Of a DNA stretch of 64,000 bases, positions 6,825 to 40,540 are shown piece after piece; the stretch's first letter is position 1, and the number at the start of each line of letters is the position of its first letter. The position numbers and the translations under genes are program-made. Below the pieces are notes generated by a model. It saw only the letters and a program-made list of their open reading frames with translations. It was not told where the DNA came from and did no database searches. The stretch is from a virus (Duplodnaviria; Heunggongvirae; Uroviricota; Caudoviricetes), in the IMG/VR virus record IMGVR_UViG_3300022555_003200; one strand, written 5' to 3'.

Positions 6825-7014
6825 CTGGATGATCCGGCCTACGCGGGATCACCTGCCGTATAAACATGTGATTCCTGAGGATCAGTGTAACCGTATCAGG
6901 AACGCCCCTCTCTCCGGCTGTCTCACGGATCTTGCCGTACCTGCATTGACAACAAAACTCTGCATTCACCCCGTGCCTACACCGCTCTATGCCAAGCTCA
7001 AGAACGTTGTTCAT
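6757..7014 (-). CDS. Hypothetical small protein.
   Basis: ORF of 85 aa in a leftward gene run. It overlaps the end of 6417-6824 in a different frame. Confidence 0.25.
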   Translation of the reverse strand: MNNVLELGIERCRHGVNAEFCCQCRYGKIRETAGERGVPDTVTLILRNHMFIRQVIPRRPDHPDVYVEKWLHGSETGGYFNKRMR

Positions 7015-7026
7015 TGCCGCTGTCTC

Positions 7027-7212
7027 CTAGTTTATGTTCGTTACGTTGACAATTGACGCGTTGACACGCCACTTATGGCCAGCGCACTTTGACTCGATCT
7101 TCTCGAGAAACTCCACAAGCTTTACTTCGATCGCGTGTATTCCATCCGGAGAAGTCTGCCGGCCGCGCTCGTTGAAAAACTTCTTAACTTTCGGTTTGCT
7201 GATGTACGACAT
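7027..7212 (-). CDS. Hypothetical small protein.
   Basis: ORF of 61 aa. Confidence 0.3.
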   Translation of the reverse strand: MSYISKPKVKKFFNERGRQTSPDGIHAIEVKLVEFLEKIESKCAGHKWRVNASIVNVTNIN

Positions 7213-15539: not shown

Positions 15540-16301
15540 ATGATTAAGGGTCTTGGGTTTACACACGAAACATTCAAGTTTCCGGTTGGAGAAATGCACG
15601 TTAAGGTGCACAGTTACACCCCGAACGACGAAGTTGCGATTGAGTTCTACTTCGAGAGGACCGAGGAGCTGGTTGAGCTTATGCTCATTGCCAATGCCCT
15701 AAAGCATGCTGGTCTAACCCTTGAACGAATATTTATGCCGTATGTTCCTTTTGGAAGGCAGGATAGGGTCGCTGTATCAGGGGAGTGCTTCTCCTTGGAG
15801 GTATTCGCCGGCATTATCAACTCGCTGGGGGTTGTCGTGGAGATCGCTGACCCACACTCGGACGTTTCAACAGCCCTTATCCACAACTGCCTTGTAATAC
15901 ATCAGCATGAGATCTTTGAACCGATGCTTAGGGAGATAGAGCCGTTTAAGTTGATCTGCCCGGATGGCGGTGCCAGGAAGAAGATCAACAAGATCAGCGA
16001 CCTTCCTTCTATGACCAACCGGATCTTGGGTGTTGTTGAGTGTTCGAAGAAACGGGAGCCGCGGACAGGAGCCATCACCGGAACGGTTGTCTATGCCGAC
16101 TCATTGGAAGGGGACACCTGTGTAATTGTTGACGATATTTGCGACGGAGGCAAGACTTTCATTGAGATCGCCAAGGTCCTTCGTGAAAAGGGTGCCAAGA
16201 AGGTCATTCTCATGGTGTCACATGGCTTTTTCACCAAAGGAATGGAAGTCTTCGACGGCATTATCGACGAGATATACACACTGAAAGGTAAAGTGAAATG
16301 A
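15540..16301 (+). CDS. Ribose-phosphate pyrophosphokinase (Prs)-like phosphoribosyltransferase. It is a candidate ADPR-pyrophosphate synthetase (Adps) of a NARP1-type NAD+ reconstitution pathway.
   Basis: PRTase PRPP-binding loop VIVDDICDGGKT, with a Prs-like N-terminal half. At 253 aa it is shorter than canonical Prs. Confidence 0.75.
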   Translation: MIKGLGFTHETFKFPVGEMHVKVHSYTPNDEVAIEFYFERTEELVELMLIANALKHAGLTLERIFMPYVPFGRQDRVAVSGECFSLEVFAGIINSLGVVVEIADPHSDVSTALIHNCLVIHQHEIFEPMLREIEPFKLICPDGGARKKINKISDLPSMTNRILGVVECSKKREPRTGAITGTVVYADSLEGDTCVIVDDICDGGKTFIEIAKVLREKGAKKVILMVSHGFFTKGMEVFDGIIDEIYTLKGKVK

Positions 16302-16729: not shown

Positions 16730-17151
16730 GCCAAGTCGTTGATCCATATTGCGATGTAAATAGGTGCATCGAACGCCTCCGTAACGAGTTCAAAAAGTAC
16801 GGTAACCTTGTTATCGGGTTCGACTTCGATGAAACGATCTTTGACTACCACCACCAGGGACACTGCTACACCGCTGTTATGGAGCTGCTCCGCCGATGCA
16901 GTAAACTTGGGCTCACAATGTGCTTGTATACTAACGAGTCTAATCCTGACAAGCTTAAGTTTAAGCAGGATTACTGTAGGTACTCGCTTGGGTTTATGCC
17001 AAGCTTCACCAATGAGAGTCCGCTGCTTAAAGACGGCGGAAAGCCATTTTTTAGCACCCTGCTTGACGACCGCGCCGGTCTCGGGCAGGCGTATATCGTA
17101 CTGGAGGCTGTAGTGAACGAAATTGAAAAGGAAAGGATACAAGAAAAATGA
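16726..17151 (+). CDS. Small HAD-superfamily phosphatase-like protein.
   Basis: Motif I FDFDETI (DxDxT), a LYTNES Thr/Ser motif, and a DD motif LLDDRAG. Confidence 0.5.
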   Translation: MSQVVDPYCDVNRCIERLRNEFKKYGNLVIGFDFDETIFDYHHQGHCYTAVMELLRRCSKLGLTMCLYTNESNPDKLKFKQDYCRYSLGFMPSFTNESPLLKDGGKPFFSTLLDDRAGLGQAYIVLEAVVNEIEKERIQEK

Positions 17152-18614
17152 TTTCACCCATTGTACTCAAGGATTTCTACAAAACAGACCATAGAAGGCA
17201 GTACCCGACAGGAACTGAGATCGTGTACTCCAATCTAACGCCTCGCGGGAGCCGTGTGCCTGGGGTCGACCACGTGGTCGTGTTTGGAATCCAGTATTTT
17301 GTCAAAGAGTACTTGATTAAGCGGTGGAATGAGGACTTTTTCAACCAACCAAAAGACGAGGTTGTTCGCAAGTACAAACGGCGCCTTGATAATGCTCTTG
17401 GAAAAGACTCTGTTCCCATTGAGCACGTTGGGGAGCTTCATGATCTTGGATACCTTCCTATTCTGCTCAAAGCTCTTCCAGAAGGAACTCTGTGTCCGAT
17501 GCGTATTCCGATCCTAACGATCCGGAACACCCACCCGAAGTTTTTTTGGCTAACAAACTTCATGGAAACAGTCATGTGTAATATCGTGTGGGGCCCAACC
17601 ACTTCAGCATCTACAGCCTACGCCTACAGAAAGATGCTGGATGGGTACGCGGCAAGGACATCTGACATTCCGGAGTTTGTCAACTGGCAGGGCCATGACT
17701 TCTCGATGCGAGGAATATTTGGGATTGAGGGAGCCCTAATGTCTGCTGCTGGCCATCTGCTTAGCTTTACGGGCACGGACACGGTCCCAGCGATCGACTT
17801 CCTTGAAGAATATTACGGCGCTGACTCTGACAAGGAGATGGTAGGTGGCAGTGTTCCGGCAACGGAGCACTCGGTCATGTGCCTCGGTGGTCTTCTGTCA
17901 GAAGAAGAGACGTTTCGCAGGCTCCTTACTGAGATCTATCCTACTGGCATTGTCTCTGTTGTGTCTGACACATGGGACTACTGGAATGTGATCACGAAGA
18001 CCCTTCCGGCTCTAAAAGATGTAATTATGAACCGGAACGGTCGGCTTGTGGTTCGCCCCGACAGTGGTGATCCTGTGAAGATCATCTGTGGCGACGCTGT
18101 GAGTGATGATCCAGCAGCCAAAGCCGGCACTGTTGAGCTTCTGTGGAACACCTTTGGCGGCTACACAAACGCTAAAGGGTTCAAGCAACTCGACAAGCAC
18201 ATTGGGGTAATCTATGGCGACAGCATCACACTTGAGCGGTGCGAAGCCATTTGTGAAGGTCTTGCACGAAAGGGGTTTGCGTCCACGAACATGGTGTTTG
18301 GCATCGGAAGCTACACTTACCAGTTTGTGACACGTGACACCTTCGGGTTTGCCATGAAAGCTACCTGGGGCATCATCAACGGAAAGCCTGTGACTATCTA
18401 CAAGGACCCGAAAACCGATAGCGGGATCAAGAAGTCCGCCCGCGGGCTCTTGCAGGTTAATCAAGATGCTACAACCGGAGAGCTCACGATGATTGAAGAT
18501 GTCACGCCAGAACAAGAGGATCTTGGGCTGCTTACAACCGTATTTGAAGATGGCAAAATCGTAACCGAGTACACACTTGCAGACATTCGCAAGCGTCTCG
18601 GGTGCATAAAGTAG
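17148..18614 (+). CDS. Nicotinamide phosphoribosyltransferase family (NAMPT/NadV-like). It is a candidate Namat.
   Basis: The 488-aa length and overall profile match the NAMPT family, including GTDTVPAIDF and the GIGSYTYQ region. Confidence 0.8.
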   Translation: MISPIVLKDFYKTDHRRQYPTGTEIVYSNLTPRGSRVPGVDHVVVFGIQYFVKEYLIKRWNEDFFNQPKDEVVRKYKRRLDNALGKDSVPIEHVGELHDLGYLPILLKALPEGTLCPMRIPILTIRNTHPKFFWLTNFMETVMCNIVWGPTTSASTAYAYRKMLDGYAARTSDIPEFVNWQGHDFSMRGIFGIEGALMSAAGHLLSFTGTDTVPAIDFLEEYYGADSDKEMVGGSVPATEHSVMCLGGLLSEEETFRRLLTEIYPTGIVSVVSDTWDYWNVITKTLPALKDVIMNRNGRLVVRPDSGDPVKIICGDAVSDDPAAKAGTVELLWNTFGGYTNAKGFKQLDKHIGVIYGDSITLERCEAICEGLARKGFASTNMVFGIGSYTYQFVTRDTFGFAMKATWGIINGKPVTIYKDPKTDSGIKKSARGLLQVNQDATTGELTMIEDVTPEQEDLGLLTTVFEDGKIVTEYTLADIRKRLGCIK

Positions 18615-24376: not shown

Positions 24377-24555
24377 GTAATACTCAGCCAAAGATAATGC
24401 TGCAGAAGTGCCTGATCTGTAACTACACATGCGCGTACGAGGTACTGTCCAAAGAAGACGAGGATACTATCCGTGCAAGCTGCCTTTCCTGTGGGCATCA
24501 GGGAATGTTTACACTACTAGAGGAGGACCACGATGGGCTATCTCGGGATAGATAA
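24322..24555 (+). CDS. Small zinc-ribbon protein.
   Basis: CLICNYTC...CLSCGHQ. Confidence 0.3.
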   Translation: MAGGSEQPNKVCKKATTMSNTQPKIMLQKCLICNYTCAYEVLSKEDEDTIRASCLSCGHQGMFTLLEEDHDGLSRDR

Positions 24556-25480
24556 TCTTTACAAGAACCAGGAAATTCTTATGTTCAAGCGCTGCTACGC
24601 TATGGAGAAGATCCACGGAACATCAGCACATATTAGCCTTGACCGGTCCAGGCAGCTTGTGTTTGGACCTATCATTGGTGTTAACGAGGACGCGAGGCGG
24701 TACACTGAGGCTGAATGGCAAGAACGCTGGCCTGACAAGATTGAACTGCATTTTTTCTCCGGCGGTGAAAAGCACGAAAACTTTATAAAACTGTTTAACC
24801 ACCAAGACCTAGAAAACAAGTTTCGAGCCATGAACATCAAGGAGCTCATTGTTTTTGGGGAAGCTTATGGTGGCAAGCAGCAGGGCATGTCTGGCACATA
24901 CGGCAAAGAGCTTAAGTTTATAGCCTTCGACGTCAAGCTTGGTGGAAACTGGCTTGCTGTGCCTAACGCGGAGTCTGTGTGTGCTCAGCTCGGCATTGAG
25001 TTTGTTCATTATGAAGAGGTTGCCACAGATCTTGATGTTTTAAATGCACTTTCCGAGGCAGACTCTGTCCAGGCTGTGCGGAATGGTGTTGGGCCCGGGC
25101 ATATCCGTGAAGGTGTGGTTTTACGGACTCTTGTTGAGCTCCGGAAGAACAATGGTGAGCGGATAATAGCCAAGCACAAGAATGAGAAGTTCCAGGAGAC
25201 TGCCAAGAAAAGAGAGGTGTCTAAAGAGCGCCTTGAAGTACTCACAGAGGCACAGGCTATCGCGGACGAGTGGGTCACGCGTCAACGCCTCATGCATGTG
25301 CTTGATAGGTTTCCGGATGCTACTATTACAGAAACAGGGGCTATTATAAAAGCAATGGTTGAGGACGTGCTTAAAGAGAGTGTCGGAGAAATTGTTTTTA
25401 GTAAAGAAGCCCAAACTGCTATTGGAAAAAAGACCGCACTTATATTCAAAGAGTACATAAAACAAAGCCTGTATGAATAG
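24533..25480 (+). CDS. ATP-dependent RNA ligase of the Rnl2 family.
   Basis: Nucleotidyltransferase motif I EKIHGTS (compare T4 Rnl2 EKIHGTN). Motifs III/IV VFGEAYGG...KFIAFDV are co-linear with T4 Rnl2. Confidence 0.75.
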   Translation: MGYLGIDNLYKNQEILMFKRCYAMEKIHGTSAHISLDRSRQLVFGPIIGVNEDARRYTEAEWQERWPDKIELHFFSGGEKHENFIKLFNHQDLENKFRAMNIKELIVFGEAYGGKQQGMSGTYGKELKFIAFDVKLGGNWLAVPNAESVCAQLGIEFVHYEEVATDLDVLNALSEADSVQAVRNGVGPGHIREGVVLRTLVELRKNNGERIIAKHKNEKFQETAKKREVSKERLEVLTEAQAIADEWVTRQRLMHVLDRFPDATITETGAIIKAMVEDVLKESVGEIVFSKEAQTAIGKKTALIFKEYIKQSLYE

Positions 25481-28914: not shown

Positions 28915-28986
28915 GCACCCATAGCTCAATGGTAGAGCAGAGGACTCATAATCCTTTGGTTCCAGGTTCGAGCCCTGGTGGGTGCA
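28915..28986 (+). tRNA. tRNA-Met with a CAT anticodon. It could instead be Ile2 if modified to lysidine.
   Basis: 7-bp acceptor stem GCACCCA/TGGGTGC, a D-arm, anticodon loop CTCATAA, and a T-arm GGTTCGAGCCC. Confidence 0.85.
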
Positions 28987-29007
28987 CTAACATAAAAGGG
29001 GGATAAA

Positions 29008-33840: not shown

Positions 33841-34056
33841 GTGAAGATGAAATACTGTCCGGTAAAAACATGTAAGCAGCACGGATTTGCGTGGTCCGGC
33901 GATAAGTTTTGTAACACGTGTGGAGCAGTTTTGTCGTCTAGGGAGTCTAACAAGTGCCCTGACTGTAACGCGGATCACTTTGAGCACCACAAGTTTTGTC
34001 CTAAGTGCGGGTACTCGTTTACTCCAGGAGTGTTATGCAGTCCAAATCAAAAATAG
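33841..34056 (+). CDS. Double zinc-ribbon small protein.
   Basis: CPVKTC...CNTCG...CPDC...CPKCG. Confidence 0.4.
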   Translation: MKMKYCPVKTCKQHGFAWSGDKFCNTCGAVLSSRESNKCPDCNADHFEHHKFCPKCGYSFTPGVLCSPNQK

Positions 34057-34595
34057 TGGCATTGATTGGGGCGCCAGCGTCCGGTAAGACTACACTGGCC
34101 CTCAACCTTGCCACACAGTTGAAGGTCAGGAACAAGAACGCGAAGTACATCCTGGAGTATCCGAGGGACTACATCGAGAAGTATGGGCACCCTGAGCACA
34201 TATCGGAGCAGATGCTAATATTCTTAACGTGGAACAGGCTTCTAGAAAACGCCATCAGCACACAGTATGACTACATCGTATGTGACAGCCCTGTGTTCGT
34301 ATCATACGTTTATGGAGTGTTTAAGGCGGATATGAAGTCCCCTAAGGACCGCATGTGGGTTAGGGAGCTCTTAGACATGACTTTGGAGTCCGCACAGACG
34401 TATGACAAGGTATTTTACATCAAGCCGGGTAAAAAGTTTCCGATCAAGGATAACCTTAGGCACTCCAATTACGAGATTCAGAAGAGGATTGACGAGAGCA
34501 TACGCGGCTTCCTGCGCTTATACAAGATTCCGTACGAGGAAGTGGTCAACACGGACTTGAAAAAGTCCACAGATTACATACTTGAAAGGATCTAG
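34035..34595 (+). CDS. P-loop nucleotide/nucleoside kinase, AAA_28/NadR-RNK-like. It is possibly a polynucleotide or nicotinamide-riboside kinase.
   Basis: Walker A GAPASGKTT. Its size and layout resemble small monophosphate kinases. Confidence 0.45.
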   Translation: MQSKSKIVALIGAPASGKTTLALNLATQLKVRNKNAKYILEYPRDYIEKYGHPEHISEQMLIFLTWNRLLENAISTQYDYIVCDSPVFVSYVYGVFKADMKSPKDRMWVRELLDMTLESAQTYDKVFYIKPGKKFPIKDNLRHSNYEIQKRIDESIRGFLRLYKIPYEEVVNTDLKKSTDYILERI

Positions 34596-34596
34596 C

Positions 34597-35145
34597 ATGT
34601 TTACACCGCATATTGAGAAGATAACTAAGGTGCAGTGGAACGGAGAGGGCCAGGTAGACTTTGAGTTTGACAGGTGTAGCTGGAGTGGGGCTAAGCGCAA
34701 GGACTTTTGGCATCCGGAGAAGGATTGGGAGAAGATTATAGTTCCAGGGGCATTCATCAGGACCTGGACTGTCCAGGGGAGTACTGTAATCGGGTTTGAG
34801 GTGTTCACAGACGACACATTTGAGCATGTGTGGTGTATTGCTAATGACTTTCAGACAAAGGACGAGCGTATGGCCGGTGACAAGGCGTACAATGATTTTA
34901 TTACAAACGAGGGTAATAAGATCGCGTTACTGATCGACAACGGTAGGTCACTAAAGAAAATTGACTCACTTATTGATGACGGTCATAGTGGTAACACGTA
35001 CGCGTGTGCACTTGCTCTTGGGATAGCAAAGGCTAAGAACAGGAAGAACGCGGAGAAGATCAGGAAGGCACATAACAAGATCTGGGGAGTTAAAGAGTCA
35101 AAGGGTGTGGTTAATCCGGCCGTGTTGACATTGACAGCAAAATAA
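34597..35145 (+). CDS. Hypothetical protein.
   Basis: ORF of 183 aa from the internal ATG at 34597. Confidence 0.35.
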   Translation: MFTPHIEKITKVQWNGEGQVDFEFDRCSWSGAKRKDFWHPEKDWEKIIVPGAFIRTWTVQGSTVIGFEVFTDDTFEHVWCIANDFQTKDERMAGDKAYNDFITNEGNKIALLIDNGRSLKKIDSLIDDGHSGNTYACALALGIAKAKNRKNAEKIRKAHNKIWGVKESKGVVNPAVLTLTAK

Positions 35146-35150
35146 CAAGT

Positions 35151-35420
35151 TTGGGGCATAGGGAGTTCCTATACACTTTACTATGACAAAGAGATACTCC
35201 CCGCCCCAGCAGTATTGCGGCAAAGGCTGTTCCTAACATATCAGACGAGGCCCTTAGGGGCCTCGATACATAGCGAACTACAGCCCGCTGCATAACTTCT
35301 GGCATAAGAGGTTCCTAATAAAAATGGGCGCACCCTTCGGGGTGCATAAATACCTCTCGCCAGTAACACAGAGGCATAAACGGTTCCTACAAACTTCTAT
35401 CTGAGAAAATACCGTTCGCC
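35151..35420 (+). ncRNA. Array of four tandem stem-loop units. Each has the conserved GGCAUAA...GUUCCUA motif with covarying stems.
   Basis: Stem pairs are GGGAGU/ACUCCC, GGCUG/CAGCC, AGAGG/CCUCU and AACGG/CCGUU. They flank loops that begin UUCCUA. Internal hairpins include a C(UUCG)G tetraloop. Confidence 0.4.
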
Positions 35421-35443
35421 TCGTCACTAACAGGAGAAACACA

Positions 35444-37399
35444 ATGAAAGCATCGATCCGGTTGTTCAAAGCAGTTCCAGTTTCCGACAGCAGGTTAGCA
35501 AGCGCCGTCAGTAAAGAGATTATGACAGCTACAGTACGGCAGGGTTTTATCTTTTCTCCAGTTGTCGCCGGTAACTACACTGAAAAGGAGCTCTTGAAAT
35601 TGGTCGATGTGGTGTCACGAGAAGTAGGTCTCTCTGGTGACAAGATGAATGCGTCTTTTCATAAGTCGTGGTCTAAGGTCCGTGACGCGAGCCTTGAGCA
35701 GCTGTTTCTTGAGCAGGTTGTTCACTACATAACTACTTACGGATTTGAGGCCATGGGTGTGTACAGCCAGGACTCTGTCTACATACCGGCGGAGAAGCTC
35801 ACTATTCCTAAAGTCAAGCTAGACAAGGTCAGCCTGACTGTAATTAAGGGGTACACAAAGGCTGAGCTAAAAGAAAAGCTTACTACGTTTCTTGGGTCTG
35901 GTATCGCTCTTAGCGATGATACAAAGGTTGACGTCATTGACCTCATTACGTTCATCGGGTTCAGCCAGGCGGAGATATTTGCAGTTAAGAATAAGGAAGT
36001 ACGGGTCGCGCTCTATGACCTCACAAATGTGCTTCCTTCGGACCCGACCGAGTTTTTGCGGTACTTGGTCTACAAGTCCACTAATACGACTATGCTTATC
36101 AAGGACAGGATGACCATAGCTGACATCAAGACAAAGGACAACCTTGCCGTATATGGGCTTCTGAAGAGGTACAAGGATAGCTATGGGCTTGAGAAGCTTG
36201 CTGAGATCTTTTATCGGTTTAAGCCACTCTTTCTGGCATTCAGGACTAAGCCTGGGCTCAAGATAATCATCAATAAGATCCGGAAGCTCGCTGTGAAGAA
36301 TCACAAGCCTATGCCTGAGGATTACTTGAACTCAGTAACGGCAAAGATTAAGTCCGGCACGGGGCTTAATACAAAGGTTATGGACGCTGAGCTGTCTAAG
36401 GCAAACATCTTCAGAAAAATACGCCTTGCGTATGCACTAAAGTACCGGACCACGGACGCGGAGTCTATCTTGTATAAGGTGCGCAATGGCAAGAGCTTCG
36501 CGACGAAGTTCGACTTTCAAGAGCAGGACGTGGCCGATGCAGCTTTGTCCAAGGTTGTCGACTCTATTGCTAACGACATCAAGCCACAGGTCGATGGAAA
36601 GAAGATTTACCTGCCTACTGGAGTTCAGTACTCCCTTCCTACGACAGAGAAGCAGTTTACCGGGGACCTTCCATCCGGAACTTCCGTGTTTGTTCCTAAG
36701 GATATCATTGTAGGTGTTCACTGGGGTAACGTAGGTAAAAACCGAGTTGATCTGGACTTGTCTTTAATTCGTTGCGACGGTGACAAGATGGGATGGGATG
36801 GCTATTACAGGTCAGGAGACAGCGACGTTTTGTTTTCCGGAGACGTTACTGACGCGCCAGGGCCTAATGGAGCGTCTGAGCTGTTTTATGTAAAGAACCA
36901 GAAGCAGGCGTCGTATATCGTGATGCTCAACTACTTTAACTGTGACGGTGGGTGGGGTGAGACCGAGTCCGGCCTTGAAGTTCCGTTTACGATTATCGTC
37001 GCATCAGAGAAGACAAAGAGCATGGAAAGAAACCACGTGGTTAACCCGAATAATGTGGTATGCACCGCGAAGTCAAAGATCAAGGATAAGCAGAAGATGC
37101 TCGGTCTTTTGGTAACGTCTCCAGAAGGAAACAAGTTCTATTTTGCCGAAGGGTACATAGGAAAGTCTATTACGGCGTACGGAGCGGATTACGTGCAGGA
37201 TGCCAGGAAGTCCATGCTGCACTTCTACTCCAATATGATTAGCCTTAAAGACGTTCTCGTAAAGGCTGGCGCTGTGATTGTCACTACCCCAGGCGTCTCG
37301 TTAGAAGACGGGAAGCAGGTTAAAAATGGTCATTGTGACATAGACCTTTCGTACGAGAACATCGCCAAGGATAGTATAGTCAAGATTTTAGTAAAATAG
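35444..37399 (+). CDS. Large orphan protein of 651 aa, function unknown.
   Basis: Long clean ORF. It contains a CDGDKMGWDG segment and no recognisable family signature. Confidence 0.5.
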   Translation: MKASIRLFKAVPVSDSRLASAVSKEIMTATVRQGFIFSPVVAGNYTEKELLKLVDVVSREVGLSGDKMNASFHKSWSKVRDASLEQLFLEQVVHYITTYGFEAMGVYSQDSVYIPAEKLTIPKVKLDKVSLTVIKGYTKAELKEKLTTFLGSGIALSDDTKVDVIDLITFIGFSQAEIFAVKNKEVRVALYDLTNVLPSDPTEFLRYLVYKSTNTTMLIKDRMTIADIKTKDNLAVYGLLKRYKDSYGLEKLAEIFYRFKPLFLAFRTKPGLKIIINKIRKLAVKNHKPMPEDYLNSVTAKIKSGTGLNTKVMDAELSKANIFRKIRLAYALKYRTTDAESILYKVRNGKSFATKFDFQEQDVADAALSKVVDSIANDIKPQVDGKKIYLPTGVQYSLPTTEKQFTGDLPSGTSVFVPKDIIVGVHWGNVGKNRVDLDLSLIRCDGDKMGWDGYYRSGDSDVLFSGDVTDAPGPNGASELFYVKNQKQASYIVMLNYFNCDGGWGETESGLEVPFTIIVASEKTKSMERNHVVNPNNVVCTAKSKIKDKQKMLGLLVTSPEGNKFYFAEGYIGKSITAYGADYVQDARKSMLHFYSNMISLKDVLVKAGAVIVTTPGVSLEDGKQVKNGHCDIDLSYENIAKDSIVKILVK

Positions 37400-37806: not shown

Positions 37807-38153
37807 GCGTACGGGAAAAGCTAAAAAATATATTTAGTAAGCCGATATTGAGCACCATTGGGTTGGTTGGGCTTATCTTTTTTGATGTGTGCCTGATTGC
37901 CATCTGTTTCATTTGCCATCAGTATTGGTGGGCGTTCTTTTGGATTGGGATCACGGCTCTTGTGGGAATGTTTGAAGGATTGTCTTATTGTGTCACTGGA
38001 CATACCATTAGTCAATGGTGGTGGATTTGGTCTGAGTCAAGTCCTCAGATGATGTGGTGGAGTCTTGCCGCGGCGTTCTGTTTCTACGCGGCTATGACCT
38101 GCCTTCTTCTTCATCTTATTTCACCCATTTTGGCCAAGCTAGCAGGTAACTAG
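37803..38153 (+). CDS. Membrane protein with 3-4 TM helices.
   Basis: Hydrophobic and Trp-rich. Confidence 0.4.
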   Translation: MSVREKLKNIFSKPILSTIGLVGLIFFDVCLIAICFICHQYWWAFFWIGITALVGMFEGLSYCVTGHTISQWWWIWSESSPQMMWWSLAAAFCFYAAMTCLLLHLISPILAKLAGN

Positions 38154-40540
38154 TGGTCAATGTTGCAAAGCTCATATCTGCTAAGAATGAAGACAAAACT
38201 AAGCGAGAAGAATGCGCCAAGTGCCCATACTTGTCGCGTATTTTTGTTCCTTCGTACACCTGCAACAATGATTTAGTTGTTGTTGGTGATGCTCCAACAG
38301 GGATTGACGCTGTTGAAGGGGTTCCATTTGGCGGTGAGAGCGGAAAGCTGTTCAGAAAGACACTATCACAGGTAGGTTTTAACGTATCACAAGTAACTTT
38401 TACGAACGCATGCCGGTGCAACCCGCCAGCGAATGAGCCTCCAAAGAAGAAGGCTCTGAAGCTTTGCACTGGCATGTATCTTTTTAATGAGCTAAAGGAT
38501 CTAAAGCCGAAGCTTGTTGTGCTTGTCGGAGCAGCAGCTCTGGAGGCGTTTTTTCCCAAAGAACGCATCATGAGTAGGGCCGGTAATTTCATGCAGACTA
38601 TGGGCATGACTTTTCTTCCTGTTATCGACCCGGCATATTGTATTCGTAATCCAACTTCCCTACCAAGGCTTAGAAAAGATCTTAATACGGCCCACCGGTA
38701 TCTGCACAACGATCTTGGTTCGGATAACAACTTTATCGTTGTGGACACCGAAGATAAGCTTGCCGCGGCGTATAGCGATCTTGTGTTGGCCTCACCAGAG
38801 CTCATTAGTTTTGACGTTGAGACTAATGAGATGCTTGACGTTTTTGACAAGGCGATGAATCTATGGAGTTGCGGATTTGGCCTTGGTGGAGGGAAGTGTT
38901 ACTCGGTTCCTTTGGACCATCCTGAGAACGTTAACATTGAGTTCCGTGATAAGTGTTGGGATCTAGTGAGGACTGTCATGTCAGGACCGTCTAAGAAGAT
39001 CGCACACAATGCCGCGTTTGACCTTAAGGTTCTCGTGAAGATGGGGGTTTCCTATAAGAACTTTTACGCTGATACGATGGTTATGGCGTTTTTACTTGAC
39101 GAGAACAGGCACTCGATAGGCCTTAAGCAGCTGTCAGCAGAGTACCTGGATGGGTGCATGTTCGAGTTTACGAAGGACATGGTAAAGCTGTGCATTTACA
39201 ACTGTGAAGACTGCAACAACACCATGGGGCTGTTTCGCAAGTTTGAGCCCGAGATCCGGCTTAGCCCGGTAATGTGGAGCCTGTTTGAGACTGTTTTGAT
39301 GCCGATGATTGAGGTTATTGTTGGTATGGAGCTTGAAGGGGTTCTCATAGACACTGCCGCGAGTACAGCACTTGCTGGAGATATTCACAGAAGGCTCGAG
39401 GCCGTGTATGAGGCTATCGCTGACACATACCCTGAGTCAAAAGATGTTAACCTAAGCTCTACTAAGCAGTTACGTGATCTTTTGTTTAAGGTACTGAAAT
39501 ATCCTGTTCTCAAGAAGACAGAGTCTGGATTACTAAGTACCGATAATGAGGTTCTTGAGAACCTGTCAAGGCAGGGGTATAAGCTGGCGACGTATCTAAT
39601 CAGAATACGTAAGCATGAGAAGATGCTTTCAACCTATGTGGAGAAGCTTCCGGGGCTTATAAAGGACGATGGTAGGCTTCACGGTAATTTCAATATCTGT
39701 GGTGCCCGCACAGGACGGCTTTCCAGCTCAGGGCCAAACCTCCAGAACATCCCTAGGGACAAGGCTGTAAAGAAGATGTTTGTGGCCTCTCCCGGATGTA
39801 TTCTGCTTCAGGCAGATGCCAGTCAGATGGAGCTCAGGGTGGCTTGTTCTGTTGCTCCGGAGCCGACAATGATACAAGCCTACCAGGATGGGCATGATAT
39901 TCATCGTTTAACGGCCTCTAAGGCCCTCCACGTTGCAGAGAAGGACGTAACCAAGGATCAGCGTCAAATCGCTAAGGGGATCAATTTTGGCTTTGTTTAC
40001 GGGCAGTCTGCAGAAGGGTTCCAGGTGTACGCAGAGACGAAGTATGGGGTTAAGTTGTCGATTGAAGAGTGTAGGGCTTTTCGTAACGCGTACTTCTCAA
40101 CGTATACGGGTTTTGAACCCTGGTACGCCAGGACCAGACGTGTTTTGTCAAAATGCGGGTTTGTGGAGTATCCTACAGGAAGGATGCGCCGGTTTCCAGA
40201 GGCAAAAGGCGTATTAGCAACCAATGTACCTGATGATATCACTAGGCAGGCCGTAAACAGTCCTGTTCAGGGCAGTAGTTCAGACATGATTTTGTTTACG
40301 ATGGTAAGGATGCGACGAATCATAGCCAAGTATAAGCTACCCGTCAGGACGATTCTTACGGTCCATGACTCAATAGTGTTTGAGGGCCCCGAGGAGCCTC
40401 TTTACGATGTTGCTCATGAGATGAACAGTGTATGTTCCATTGACCTTCCTAGAAGCTTTTCGTGGCTAAAAGTGCCTATGAAGTTTGATTACTCGTTCGG
40501 CAAGAACTGGGGCGAACTAGAGGAGGTCAAGGTGAACTAA
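38153..40540 (+). CDS. polA: Family A DNA polymerase fused to an N-terminal family-4 uracil-DNA glycosylase domain and a 3'-5' exonuclease domain.
   Basis: UDG4 motifs VVGDAPTG...GVPFGGESGKL with Cys ligands. ExoI motif FDVETN. Pol motif B RQIAKGINFGFVYGQS. Motif C VHDSIVFE. Confidence 0.9.
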   Translation: MVNVAKLISAKNEDKTKREECAKCPYLSRIFVPSYTCNNDLVVVGDAPTGIDAVEGVPFGGESGKLFRKTLSQVGFNVSQVTFTNACRCNPPANEPPKKKALKLCTGMYLFNELKDLKPKLVVLVGAAALEAFFPKERIMSRAGNFMQTMGMTFLPVIDPAYCIRNPTSLPRLRKDLNTAHRYLHNDLGSDNNFIVVDTEDKLAAAYSDLVLASPELISFDVETNEMLDVFDKAMNLWSCGFGLGGGKCYSVPLDHPENVNIEFRDKCWDLVRTVMSGPSKKIAHNAAFDLKVLVKMGVSYKNFYADTMVMAFLLDENRHSIGLKQLSAEYLDGCMFEFTKDMVKLCIYNCEDCNNTMGLFRKFEPEIRLSPVMWSLFETVLMPMIEVIVGMELEGVLIDTAASTALAGDIHRRLEAVYEAIADTYPESKDVNLSSTKQLRDLLFKVLKYPVLKKTESGLLSTDNEVLENLSRQGYKLATYLIRIRKHEKMLSTYVEKLPGLIKDDGRLHGNFNICGARTGRLSSSGPNLQNIPRDKAVKKMFVASPGCILLQADASQMELRVACSVAPEPTMIQAYQDGHDIHRLTASKALHVAEKDVTKDQRQIAKGINFGFVYGQSAEGFQVYAETKYGVKLSIEECRAFRNAYFSTYTGFEPWYARTRRVLSKCGFVEYPTGRMRRFPEAKGVLATNVPDDITRQAVNSPVQGSSSDMILFTMVRMRRIIAKYKLPVRTILTVHDSIVFEGPEEPLYDVAHEMNSVCSIDLPRSFSWLKVPMKFDYSFGKNWGELEEVKVN

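What the first reader, a model, noticed from the sequence alone, without database searches (positions are those of the whole stretch)
35151..35420. Four tandem stem-loops with covarying stems and a conserved UUCCUA loop motif upstream of an orphan 651-aa gene
Four units spaced about 70 nt apart each contain the direct repeat GGCAUAA-N2-3-[stem]-UUCCUA(A). The stem sequences differ in every unit, but each retains a perfect complement 27-51 nt downstream (GGGAGU/ACUCCC, GGCUG/CAGCC, AGAGG/CCUCU, AACGG/CCGUU). Compensatory change around an invariant loop is the classic signature of a selected RNA or DNA secondary structure. Two units also carry nested hairpins, one of them a C(UUCG)G tetraloop. 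No protein-coding frame explains the region. It could be an sRNA array, a processing or translational-control element for the downstream orphan gene, a protein-binding array, or an origin. It does not look CRISPR-like because the repeats are not identical.
Basis: seen in the sequence. Interest (0 to 1): 0.72.

Follow-up and report, generated by a model that had tools for sequence, protein, structure and literature searches.

The report
Tandem small RNAs beside phage protein
Four tandem copies of a small folded RNA sit just upstream of a phage gene, and the same RNA-gene pairing recurs in about a hundred uncultured phage contigs and three cultured phages; no RNA database lists it, and it most resembles the Y RNA-Ro60 kind of RNA-protein partnership, but with a different protein.

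Summary
Window 35153-35422 (+) holds four units of one RNA motif: outer helix P1 (NNGGC/GCCNN), a 3-nt AUA (once AAA) loop opposite an invariant bulged C, a covarying 5-bp helix P2, invariant UUCCUA, a variable insert, then UA.

A covariance model finds only these four sites in the 64-kb window. Rfam 15 has no match.

A pattern scan found the motif in tandem arrays of 2-8 in about 100 phage contigs. Among 305 distinct units defined by sequence alone, 283 keep all four variable P2 pairs, against about 43 with shuffled partners.

The arrays lie almost always just upstream of, and on the same strand as, homologues of the "orphan" 651-aa gene. That gene is not an orphan: it has more than 2,200 homologue clusters, no Pfam domain, and a predicted helical N-terminal part plus a TerD-like beta-sandwich.

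Seven of seven loci chosen through the protein carry units, including cyanophages S-CRM01 and S-CBWM1 and phage Phass-1. Some units lie downstream of the gene or inside tRNA clusters. Some carry a permuted tRNA-like module that hits Rfam YrlA below threshold.

Best reading: small Y-RNA-like RNAs bound by the adjacent protein, with possible translational feedback through the last unit. No Ro60 gene and no Ro60-binding motif is present.

The parts
35153..35207 (+). Unit 1 (55 nt). P1 35153-35157/35203-35207 (GGGGC/GCCCC, extendable by U35152-A35208). AUA 35158-35160. P2 35161-35165/35197-35201 (GGGAG/CUCCC). UUCCUA 35166-35171. Unstructured 23-nt insert. UA 35195-35196. Bulged C 35202.
   Evidence: Covariance model R1 scores 56.2 bits, E = 5.8e-14. 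This unit was in the seed alignment A2.
35217..35291 (+). Unit 2 (75 nt). P1 GCGGC/GCUGC (one G.U pair). AAA 35222-35224. P2 GGCUG/CAGCC 35225-35229/35281-35285. UUCCUA 35230-35235. Bulged C 35286.
   Evidence: R1 scores 28 bits, E = 1.4e-5; the unit was not in the seed.
35247..35264 (+). Nested hairpin in the variable insert of unit 2 (GAGGCCC-UUAG-GGGCCUC). It occupies the 'P3' position, which in other phages holds a mini-hairpin, a GC-rich hairpin or a tRNA-like module.
35299..35363 (+). Unit 3 (65 nt). P1 CUGGC/GCCAG. AUA 35304-35306. P2 AGAGG/CCUCU 35307-35311/35353-35357. UUCCUA 35312-35317. Bulged C 35358.
   Evidence: R1 scores 46.2 bits, E = 5.2e-11; the unit was not in the seed.
35330..35345 (+). 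Nested hairpin in the insert of unit 3 (GCACCC-UUCG-GGGUGC), with a UUCG tetraloop.
35371..35422 (+). Unit 4 (52 nt). P1 GAGGC/GCCUC. AUA 35376-35378. P2 AACGG/CCGUU 35379-35383/35412-35416. UUCCUA 35384-35389. Bulged C 35417. It ends 9 nt before the Shine-Dalgarno sequence and 21 nt before the start codon.
   Evidence: R1 scores 56.8 bits, E = 3.9e-14. This unit was in the seed alignment A2.
35432..35446 (+). Shine-Dalgarno AGGAG (35432-35436) and ATG (35444-35446) of the partner gene, immediately 3' of unit 4.
   Evidence: In 62 of 76 related arrays the last unit ends 7-40 nt before the ATG; the median over all 76 is 20 nt.
35444..37399 (+). The 651-aa partner protein. Predicted parts: a basic all-helical N-terminal part (about residues 1-385; residues 121-385 have pI 9.6), a TerD-like beta-sandwich (about 387-570) and a small C-terminal domain. 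It belongs to a family that is almost always adjacent to these RNA arrays.

Best explanation
The region encodes an array of four small structured non-coding RNAs of one previously uncatalogued, phage-specific family. The array is transcribed on the + strand together with the 651-aa gene.

Each unit has a constant module and a variable distal module. The constant module is P1, a 3-nt AUA loop (AAA in unit 2) opposite a bulged C, P2, then single-stranded UUCCUA...UA. The distal module is an A/U-rich segment, a hairpin or, in relatives, a tRNA-like domain.

I infer that the constant module is the binding site for the adjacent helical + TerD-like protein. RNA and protein would then form a ribonucleoprotein, the way Y RNAs (YrlA/Yrl) pair with Ro60. 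I also infer that the A/U-rich spacers let host RNases cut the array into units of about 50-120 nt. Because the last unit abuts the ribosome-binding site, the same protein-RNA contact could feed back on translation of the gene.

Shown here: the structure, its covariation, its strand, its family-wide linkage to the gene, and the YrlA-like and tRNA-embedded variants.

Inferred only: transcription and processing into discrete RNAs, binding by the protein, and the biological role. A role in RNA or tRNA metabolism or counter-defence is a guess from the tRNA-cluster and RNA-ligase context.
For: Structure and selection:
- RNAalifold recovers P1 + P2 + U14-A49 on 52 units.
- 98% of cells are paired, 7 of 10 pairs change on both sides, and the covariation score is 0.677 against 0.245 when shuffled.
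- With units defined by sequence only, 283 of 305 keep all four variable P2 pairs, against a mean of 43 (maximum 57) with shuffled partners; P2 shows 54 distinct tetramers.

Strand: G.U 75 against A.C 24. No array lies on the strand opposite the gene.

Linkage to the gene:
- Loci retrieved by the RNA pattern alone place 86 of 118 arrays 0-120 nt upstream of a homologue's start. Most of the rest are contig ends or homing-endonuclease insertions.
- All seven loci retrieved through the protein carry units: L026, S-CRM01, Phass-1, L151, L152, L153 and S-CBWM1, down to 30% protein identity.
- The three divergent phages share a clade-specific change, UUCCUA to UUCCUU, in most of their units.

Acts as RNA genes rather than only as a leader:
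- The array lies 1.25 kb downstream of the gene in Phass-1.
- A unit follows the stop codon in S-CRM01, and an array does so in L139, where a terminator follows it.
- One unit sits between tRNA-Pro and tRNA-Glu, 2.5 kb from the gene, in S-CBWM1.
- Several arrays have their own near-consensus sigma-70 promoter.

Y-RNA likeness:
- Units with long inserts hit Rfam YrlA at 33-45 bits, E = 7e-7 to 2e-3, some over the full model.
- The same two-domain RNA also occurs circularly permuted, as a tRNA whose anticodon arm is capped by P2-P1 (L019, L100, L109).
- Phage phiLo has two Y-RNA-like genes directly upstream of its Ro60 gene (PMC12135203).

Protein and spacers: the helical part is basic, with many invariant Arg/Lys. 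Spacers are 82% A+U, with a median of 13 nt.
Against: - There is no expression, processing or binding data of any kind.
- The protein has no recognisable RNA-binding domain. Its only assignable fold is TerD-like, a Ca2+-binding stress-protein fold.
- The protein is not Ro60/TROVE by sequence or fold.
- None of 305 units has the Ro60-binding motif GNCGAAN0-1G.
- None of the window's own four units has a tRNA-like module.
- The tight, conserved spacing of the last unit to the start codon fits a cis-regulatory operator just as well.
- No conserved protein neighbour points to a pathway.
Confidence: 0.55

Rival explanations
1. A purely cis-acting 5'-leader. The units are tandem operators, bound by the gene's own product or by a host factor or ligand, and their only function is to control translation or stability of the 651-aa mRNA.
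For: In 86 of 118 arrays the last unit ends within 120 nt of the start codon on the same strand. The typical gap is 7-40 nt, so P1' nearly touches the Shine-Dalgarno sequence. In the window no promoter or terminator separates the array from the gene. UUCCU can pair with AGGAG-type Shine-Dalgarno sequences (read from the sequence).
Against: Units occur downstream of the gene (Phass-1 at 1.25 kb; L139 and S-CRM01 just after the stop codon). One sits inside a tRNA cluster 2.5 kb away (S-CBWM1). Others are separated from the gene by inserted homing-endonuclease ORFs. Some units carry complete tRNA-like modules or are embedded in a tRNA. UUCCU is kept in phages whose gene has no Shine-Dalgarno sequence (L010, L013, L021, L038). 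Copy numbers of 2-8 with conserved sub-types are hard to explain for a single operator.
Confidence: 0.2
2. Decoy or sponge RNAs acting on host factors independently of the neighbouring protein. Possible targets are tRNA-directed defence nucleases, tRNA-modifying or processing enzymes, or an RNA-binding regulator. Gene linkage would then reflect only co-expression.
For: Some units carry tRNA-like modules. Some distal loops look like anticodon loops (CUGUUAA, CUGCUAA). Arrays sit beside or inside phage tRNA clusters. The window and one relative encode an RNA ligase. Multi-copy arrays are typical of sponges.
Against: The invariant part is the non-tRNA-like P1/AUA/C/P2/UUCCUA module, which is present in every unit, whereas only about 6% have tRNA-like inserts. 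The RNA-gene linkage holds across protein identities of 30-68%, and no other gene is conserved nearby. That argues for a direct partnership.
Confidence: 0.12
3. Self-processing or processing-signal elements. Each unit would be a small ribozyme or a dedicated RNase substrate that cuts the polycistronic transcript.
For: The units have a small conserved core with variable helices, occur in tandem in phages, and include circularly permuted versions. Known small self-cleaving ribozyme classes show these features (from general knowledge).
Against: No match to any Rfam ribozyme family, even at E <= 10. There is no candidate cleavage-site signature and no reason for exclusive linkage to one protein family. 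Nothing was tested biochemically.
Confidence: 0.05
4. A DNA-level element: a replication origin, iterons or a protein-binding DNA repeat within the replication module.
For: In the window the array sits between primase/helicase genes and the DNA polymerase, SSB and UvsX genes. The repeats are spaced about 64-82 bp apart.
Against: Complementarity is strand-asymmetric: G.U 75 against A.C 24. The orientation relative to the gene is fixed. The stems covary while the repeat sequence itself is not conserved. In other phages the array sits in tRNA clusters, not replication modules. GC skew shows no switch here.
Confidence: 0.03

Closest known systems
Y RNAs and their Ro60/Rsr partner, especially bacterial and phage YrlA (Rfam RF02553) and the Yrl1/Yrl2 genes upstream of Ro60 in Thermus phage phiLo (PMC4201824; PMC12135203)
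   Same: Small modular RNAs encoded next to the gene of their protein partner, often in tandem and directly upstream. Each has a stem closed by the 5' and 3' ends with a conserved internal loop or bulge, plus a variable distal module. In a subset of units the distal module is a permuted tRNA-like domain (T arm, closed acceptor-like stem, D arm) joined through an anticodon-like stem, and these units hit the YrlA model at 33-45 bits.
Type III toxin-antitoxin antitoxin repeats (ToxI/CptI/TenpI upstream of ToxN-type endoRNases)
   Same: A tandem array of short structured RNA repeats directly upstream of, and co-transcribed with, the gene of the protein that binds and processes them (from general knowledge).
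   Different: ToxI-type repeats are near-identical 34-36-nt copies. Here the copies differ (67-81% identity over the 21-nt core) and only the structure is kept. The protein has no ToxN/AbiEii similarity and no PADLOC hit. The elements are carried by lytic-type phages, and only 2 hits were found in 185,579 species genomes, both on short MAG contigs.
Autoregulatory mRNA leaders that mimic an RNA-binding protein's primary target (ribosomal-protein leaders, T4 gp32/RegA operators)
   Same: A protein-binding structured RNA placed so that its 3' end abuts the ribosome-binding site of the protein's own gene. Here the last unit ends a median of 20 nt before the ATG.
   Different: Such operators are single sites confined to the leader. 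Here there are 2-8 copies, some far from or downstream of the gene.
TerD-family proteins (PDB 2qz7, 2kxt, 3ibz)
   Different: The Pfam TerD model is not matched by sequence. The domain is embedded in a 650-aa protein with a large novel helical N-terminal part. No ter operon context is present. Full-length structural relatives are seen only in other phages: Campylobacter phages IBB35 and CP21, and Siphoviridae sp. ctFn287.

Membership tests
Y RNA / YrlA (Ro60-associated) | Encoded next to a Ro60/Rsr (TROVE + vWA) gene and bound by it | tested here: not met
Y RNA / YrlA (Ro60-associated) | Conserved Ro60-recognition motif GNCGAAN0-1G (CGAA) near the 5' end (PMC4201824) | tested here: not met
   None of 305 distinct units has it in the first 20 nt. 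CGAA occurs anywhere in only 34 units and at no fixed position.
Y RNA / YrlA (Ro60-associated) | Modular fold: a stem formed by the 5' and 3' ends with an internal loop or bulge, plus a distal effector module | tested here: met
   P1 and P2, with a 3x1 internal loop and a large distal junction, are supported by covariation.
Y RNA / YrlA (Ro60-associated) | tRNA-like distal domain (T arm, closed acceptor-like stem, D arm) and a score at or above Rfam's gathering score for RF02553 (69 bits) | tested here: not met
   Window units give no Rfam hit at E <= 10. In relatives, 9 units score 33-45 bits, which is significant but below the gathering score. About 6% of units have such inserts.
Type III TA antitoxin RNA array (ToxI-like) | Near-identical tandem repeats upstream of a ToxN/AbiEii-type endoRNase | tested here: not met
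   Copies are 67-81% identical over the 21-nt core and unrelated elsewhere. The protein has no ToxN-like Pfam hit and no PADLOC hit.
CRISPR array | Identical direct repeats separated by unique spacers of uniform length | tested here: not met
   The repeats are not identical and the unit lengths are 52-75 nt. No cas-like neighbours were found.
Riboswitch or other catalogued cis-regulatory RNA | Match to a described aptamer family, with an expression platform, confined to a 5' UTR | tested here: not met
   No Rfam 15 match. There is no terminator or anti-terminator. Some units lie outside 5' UTRs.
tRNA | Cloverleaf recognised by ARAGORN or the Rfam tRNA model | tested here: not met
   The only tRNA in the window is tRNA-Met at 28915-28987. 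In relatives a tRNA model matches only where a unit is inserted into, or carries, a tRNA-like module.
TerD domain (partner protein) | TerD beta-sandwich fold | tested here: met

The most novel reading that the evidence does not exclude
This is a new, phage-specific class of ribonucleoprotein. A family of small RNAs with a P1/AUA.C/P2/UUCCUA scaffold and exchangeable distal modules (mini-hairpin, hairpin or tRNA mimic) serves as partners or adaptors for a novel helical + TerD-like protein that is unrelated to Ro60. On this reading it would have arrived independently at the Y RNA-Ro60 design, and it may act on host or phage tRNAs, for example in quality control, repair or evasion of tRNA-targeting defences.
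Probability: 0.4. Interest if true: 0.85.

Novelty: new variant of a known kind. Interest (0 to 1): 0.8.

Why it matters
If the reading holds, a very common protein family of uncultured phages gains its first functional handle: a dedicated set of small RNA partners. The family has more than 2,200 clusters at 90% identity, members that are 50-68% identical across hosts whose units range from about 28 to 59% GC, and no annotation anywhere.

It would also be a second, independent example of the Y RNA design (a protein-binding stem plus a tRNA-mimic module), built on a non-Ro60 protein. That bears on why tRNA mimicry is coupled to RNP scaffolds.

The system can be tested now, because three cultured phages carry it (S-CRM01, S-CBWM1, Phass-1).

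On the practical side, the motif deserves an Rfam family. It also exposes probably spurious ORF calls in deposited phage genomes.

Tried and rejected
- Known RNA families: Rfam at gathering score over the whole window, and at E <= 10 over 34900-35700, gave only chance hits.
- Close DNA relatives among 50,697 phage records: none.
- Back-translated peptide scan of viral contigs for the protein: no confirmed relative. The RNA pattern scan worked instead.
- Other domain architectures of the N-terminal part: a phmmer search against 1.84 billion representatives gave 1,155 hits; in the 150 listed, all full-length ones are about 600-700 aa.
- Defence-system membership: no PADLOC hit.
- A conserved protein neighbourhood: none beyond the RNA array.
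- UUCCU as an anti-Shine-Dalgarno element: rejected as the general role, because it is kept where the gene has no Shine-Dalgarno sequence.
- Kink-turn reading of the AUA loop: rejected, because the two positions after the loop covary as Watson-Crick pairs.
- Distal loops as anticodon mimics (CUGUUAA, CUGCUAA): only 7 of 305 units, so this was left as a lead.
- The tRNA-embedded versions as real intron-containing tRNAs: no plausible 7-nt anticodon loop remains after removing the unit.
- Literature: eight searches found no description of this RNA or protein family. The library is incomplete, so prior description elsewhere cannot be excluded.

Full report
**1. The observation**

Window 35146-35443 is a 298-nt gap between an unannotated 187-aa ORF (34582-35145) and the 651-aa ORF 35444-37399.

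It contains four direct copies of a 21-nt core with start-to-start spacings of 64, 82 and 72 nt. GGCAWANNNNKTTCCTA matches exactly four times in 64 kb, all here.

The 'GGC' of the repeat is the inner end of a second, outer helix: GGGGC/GCCCC, GCGGC/GCUGC, CUGGC/GCCAG and GAGGC/GCCUC. One invariant C bulges between the two 3' strands.

Each unit therefore reads: P1 (5 bp), AUA (AAA in unit 2), P2 (5 bp), UUCCUA, variable insert, UA, P2', C, P1'.

The region folds far better than shuffles (z = -5.45). Only 41-64-aa ORFs on the opposite strand overlap it.

**2. Not a catalogued RNA**

Rfam 15 gives nothing at gathering score in the window except tRNA-Met at 28915. It gives only two chance hits at E <= 10 in the region. 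ARAGORN finds no tRNA here.

**3. The motif is a widespread family**

I scanned with a two-unit pattern, GGCATA-N4-GTTCCTA-N40-70-GGCA.A-N4-GTTCC.

- It matched 25 viral contigs.
- It matched only two short MAG contigs among one genome for each of 185,579 prokaryotic species.

The element therefore belongs essentially to free phage genomes.

A MAFFT alignment of 52 short units (A2) gives this consensus: NNGGC-AUA-RRNRG-UUCCUAwwAAA...wUUA-CYNYY-C-GCCNN.

RNAalifold recovers P1, P2 and an invariant U-A extension without any prompting. On the stated structure, 98% of cells pair and 7 of 10 pairs change on both sides. The covariation score is 0.677, against 0.245 for shuffles and at most 0.20 for slid registers.

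Those units had been picked using complementarity, so I repeated the test with units defined only by their invariant letters. That gave 305 distinct units. In 283 of them all four free P2 positions pair, against a mean of 43 (maximum 57) when the 3' strands are dealt to other units. P2 shows 54 different tetramers.

G.U pairs (75) outnumber A.C (24), so the gene's strand is the one that folds.

The covariance model R1 finds exactly the four window units, at E = 4e-14 to 1e-5; the next hit has E = 2. Units 2 and 3 were not in the seed.

**4. Linkage to the 651-aa gene**

The loci were fetched by RNA pattern alone.

- In 86 of 118 arrays the last unit ends 0-120 nt upstream of the start of a homologue of the 651-aa protein, on the same strand.
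- Eight more arrays lie 121-600 nt upstream.
- Fifteen run into a contig end.
- None lies on the opposite strand.

The exceptions are informative. Homing-endonuclease-like ORFs are inserted between array and gene in L135, L091 and L151. L063 has an interrupted gene. In L139 the array follows the stop codon directly and is then followed by a terminator.

The reverse also holds: all seven loci fetched through the protein carry units. They are the syntenic relative L026 (68% identity, five units), L151, L152 and L153, and three cultured phages at about 30% identity.

- S-CRM01 has an array upstream of g174 and one unit just after its stop codon.
- S-CBWM1 has one unit 13 nt upstream of gp22 and another between tRNA-Pro and tRNA-Glu, 2.5 kb away.
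- Phass-1 has a seven-unit array 1.25 kb downstream.

No other neighbouring gene is conserved. Several arrays have their own near-consensus sigma-70 promoter. The window's array does not.

**5. The distal module and the Y RNA connection**

- In 228 of 305 units the insert is a short, A/U-rich, weakly structured segment (median 24 nt).
- In 68 units the insert is a stable hairpin, as in window units 2 and 3.
- About 6% of units are at least 100 nt long.

The long ones examined contain a T arm, a closed acceptor-like stem and a D arm, joined through an anticodon-like stem. This is the circularly permuted tRNA mimic that defines bacterial YrlA Y RNAs (PMC4201824).

Nine such units hit Rfam YrlA (RF02553) at 33-45 bits, E = 7e-7 to 2e-3, some over the whole model. 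All are below the gathering score of 69.

In L019, L100 and L109 the same two-domain RNA is written the other way round. There a tRNA-like gene carries an anticodon arm extended by the junction, P2, the AUA/C loop and a closed P1.

Such permutation indicates that the folded two-domain RNA is what is selected, not its position in an mRNA.

The closest published architecture is Thermus phage phiLo. Two Y-RNA-like genes lie directly upstream of its Ro60 gene and bind the Ro60 protein (PMC12135203).

**6. The partner protein**

It is not an orphan. It has 2,210 homologue clusters at 90% identity, and the best 120 are 51-68% identical. The N-terminal part alone finds 1,155 clusters at 50% identity. 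In the 150 listed, all full-length ones are about 600-700 aa.

Pfam, PHROGs and PADLOC return nothing. NCBIfam gives only a weak local hit in the TerD-like region.

The AlphaFold2 model is confident (pLDDT 85, pTM 0.85). It shows a helical N-terminal part (residues 121-385 have pI 9.6), a beta-sandwich at about 387-570 and a small C-terminal domain.

Full-length structural relatives exist only in other phages: Campylobacter phages IBB35 and CP21, and an uncultured siphovirus.

No TROVE protein was found among the roughly 57 window ORFs scanned. None of 305 units carries the Ro60-recognition motif GNCGAAN0-1G.

**7. How it most likely works**

Shown: a selected RNA fold on the sense strand, in multiple non-identical copies, inseparable from one protein family, with exchangeable distal modules that include tRNA mimics.

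Inferred: the invariant P1/AUA.C/P2/UUCCUA...UA module is the docking site for the adjacent protein.

Inferred: the A/U-rich spacers (82% A+U, median 13 nt) allow host RNases to release single units.

Inferred: the RNP acts in trans, the way Y RNAs scaffold Ro60.

The last unit ends a median of 20 nt before the ATG (21 nt in the window, 9 nt before AGGAG). Occupancy of that unit could therefore also throttle translation of the gene.

I give this combined reading 0.55. The rivals are a cis-only leader (0.20), decoys independent of the protein (0.12), processing or ribozyme elements (0.05) and a DNA element (0.03).

The biological role is open. The recurrent placement beside or inside phage tRNA clusters and the RNA ligase genes hint at tRNA or RNA metabolism, but nothing more can be said.

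**8. Comparison and novelty**

It works like a Y RNA-Ro60 module, and some members are probably homologous to YrlA in their distal domain. It still fails the defining membership tests: there is no Ro60, no Ro60-binding motif, and scores stay below threshold.

It is not ToxI-like (copies not identical, no ToxN), not CRISPR, and not a described riboswitch.

I found no description in Rfam 15 or in eight literature searches, but the library is incomplete. I file it as a new variant of a known kind. There is a 0.4 chance that it is better regarded as a new RNP class.

**9. Caveats**

- Retrieval by a consensus pattern favours canonical units, so diversity is underestimated.
- Units within and between arrays are related by descent, so shuffle statistics overstate independence. 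The slid-register control and the 54 different P2 tetramers mitigate this.
- E-values from the quickly calibrated model are rough.
- No transcript, processing or binding data exist.

Noticed in passing
window 15540-16301, 17148-18614, 34005-34595: The phage encodes NAD+ salvage genes: PRPP synthetase, nicotinamide phosphoribosyltransferase and a NadR-like AAA_28 kinase domain. The last lies two genes upstream of the RNA array. Phass-1 has nicotinamidase, PRPP synthetase and NAMPT just upstream of its homologue of the 651-aa gene.
   Followed up: partly
window 24533-25480; L151 10664-11542: An RNA ligase (PF09414) is encoded in the window, and another lies 2.7 kb downstream of the homologue in an unrelated contig. 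This is a weak hint of an RNA-repair context.
   Followed up: no
L003 4448-4744 and 3465-10376 (IMGVR_UViG_3300037067_006484): This phage contig carries 34 tRNA genes and a bacterial-type RNase P RNA (RF00010, 148.8 bits) directly upstream of its RNA array.
   Followed up: no
L028 4791-4937 (S-CRM01 g173c, NC_015569 132391-132537, minus strand); L029 8022-8321 (Phass-1 WIC39680.1): These annotated 'hypothetical protein' ORFs lie on top of RNA units of the array and are probably spurious calls.
   Followed up: partly
L135 1222-1653; L151 5271-5993; L091 851-1570; L063 (- strand, just downstream of the array at 6957-7073): Homing-endonuclease-like ORFs (GIY-YIG-like, NUMOD3, zinc-finger type) are inserted between the array and the gene. 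In L063 the homologue's reading frame breaks off after about 35 codons, which suggests an insertion or intron.
   Followed up: no
L026 7545-7665: In the window's closest relative, an extra element of about 110 nt closed by a long stem (GGTAGTCTAC...GTAGACTATC) sits between units 1 and 2 of the array. It has no counterpart in the window.
   Followed up: no
window 38153-40540: The family A DNA polymerase carries an N-terminal uracil-DNA-glycosylase-like domain as well as the 3'-5' exonuclease domain. The same fusion occurs in the syntenic relative L026.
   Followed up: no
units in L008 9607-9657, L011 7058-7111, L019 (- strand) 1713-1764, L024 7043-7095 and 7401-7456; L004 2608-2659, L012 1958-2012, L154 449-503: Recurrent distal-loop sequences are shared by unrelated phages. 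CUGUUAA and CUGCUAA are identical to tRNA-Asn(GUU) and tRNA-Ser(GCU) anticodon loops. A second type carries UUGGCG. This suggests conserved unit sub-types with specific partners.
   Followed up: partly
all units, P2 and the start of the junction (window 35161-35168, for example): P2 is always 5 bp, closed by an invariant G-C pair and followed by UUC. This resembles a tRNA T stem with G53-C61 and U54-U55-C56, so the scaffold may derive from an acceptor/T-arm minihelix. This is a resemblance only; position 58 is not A.
   Followed up: no
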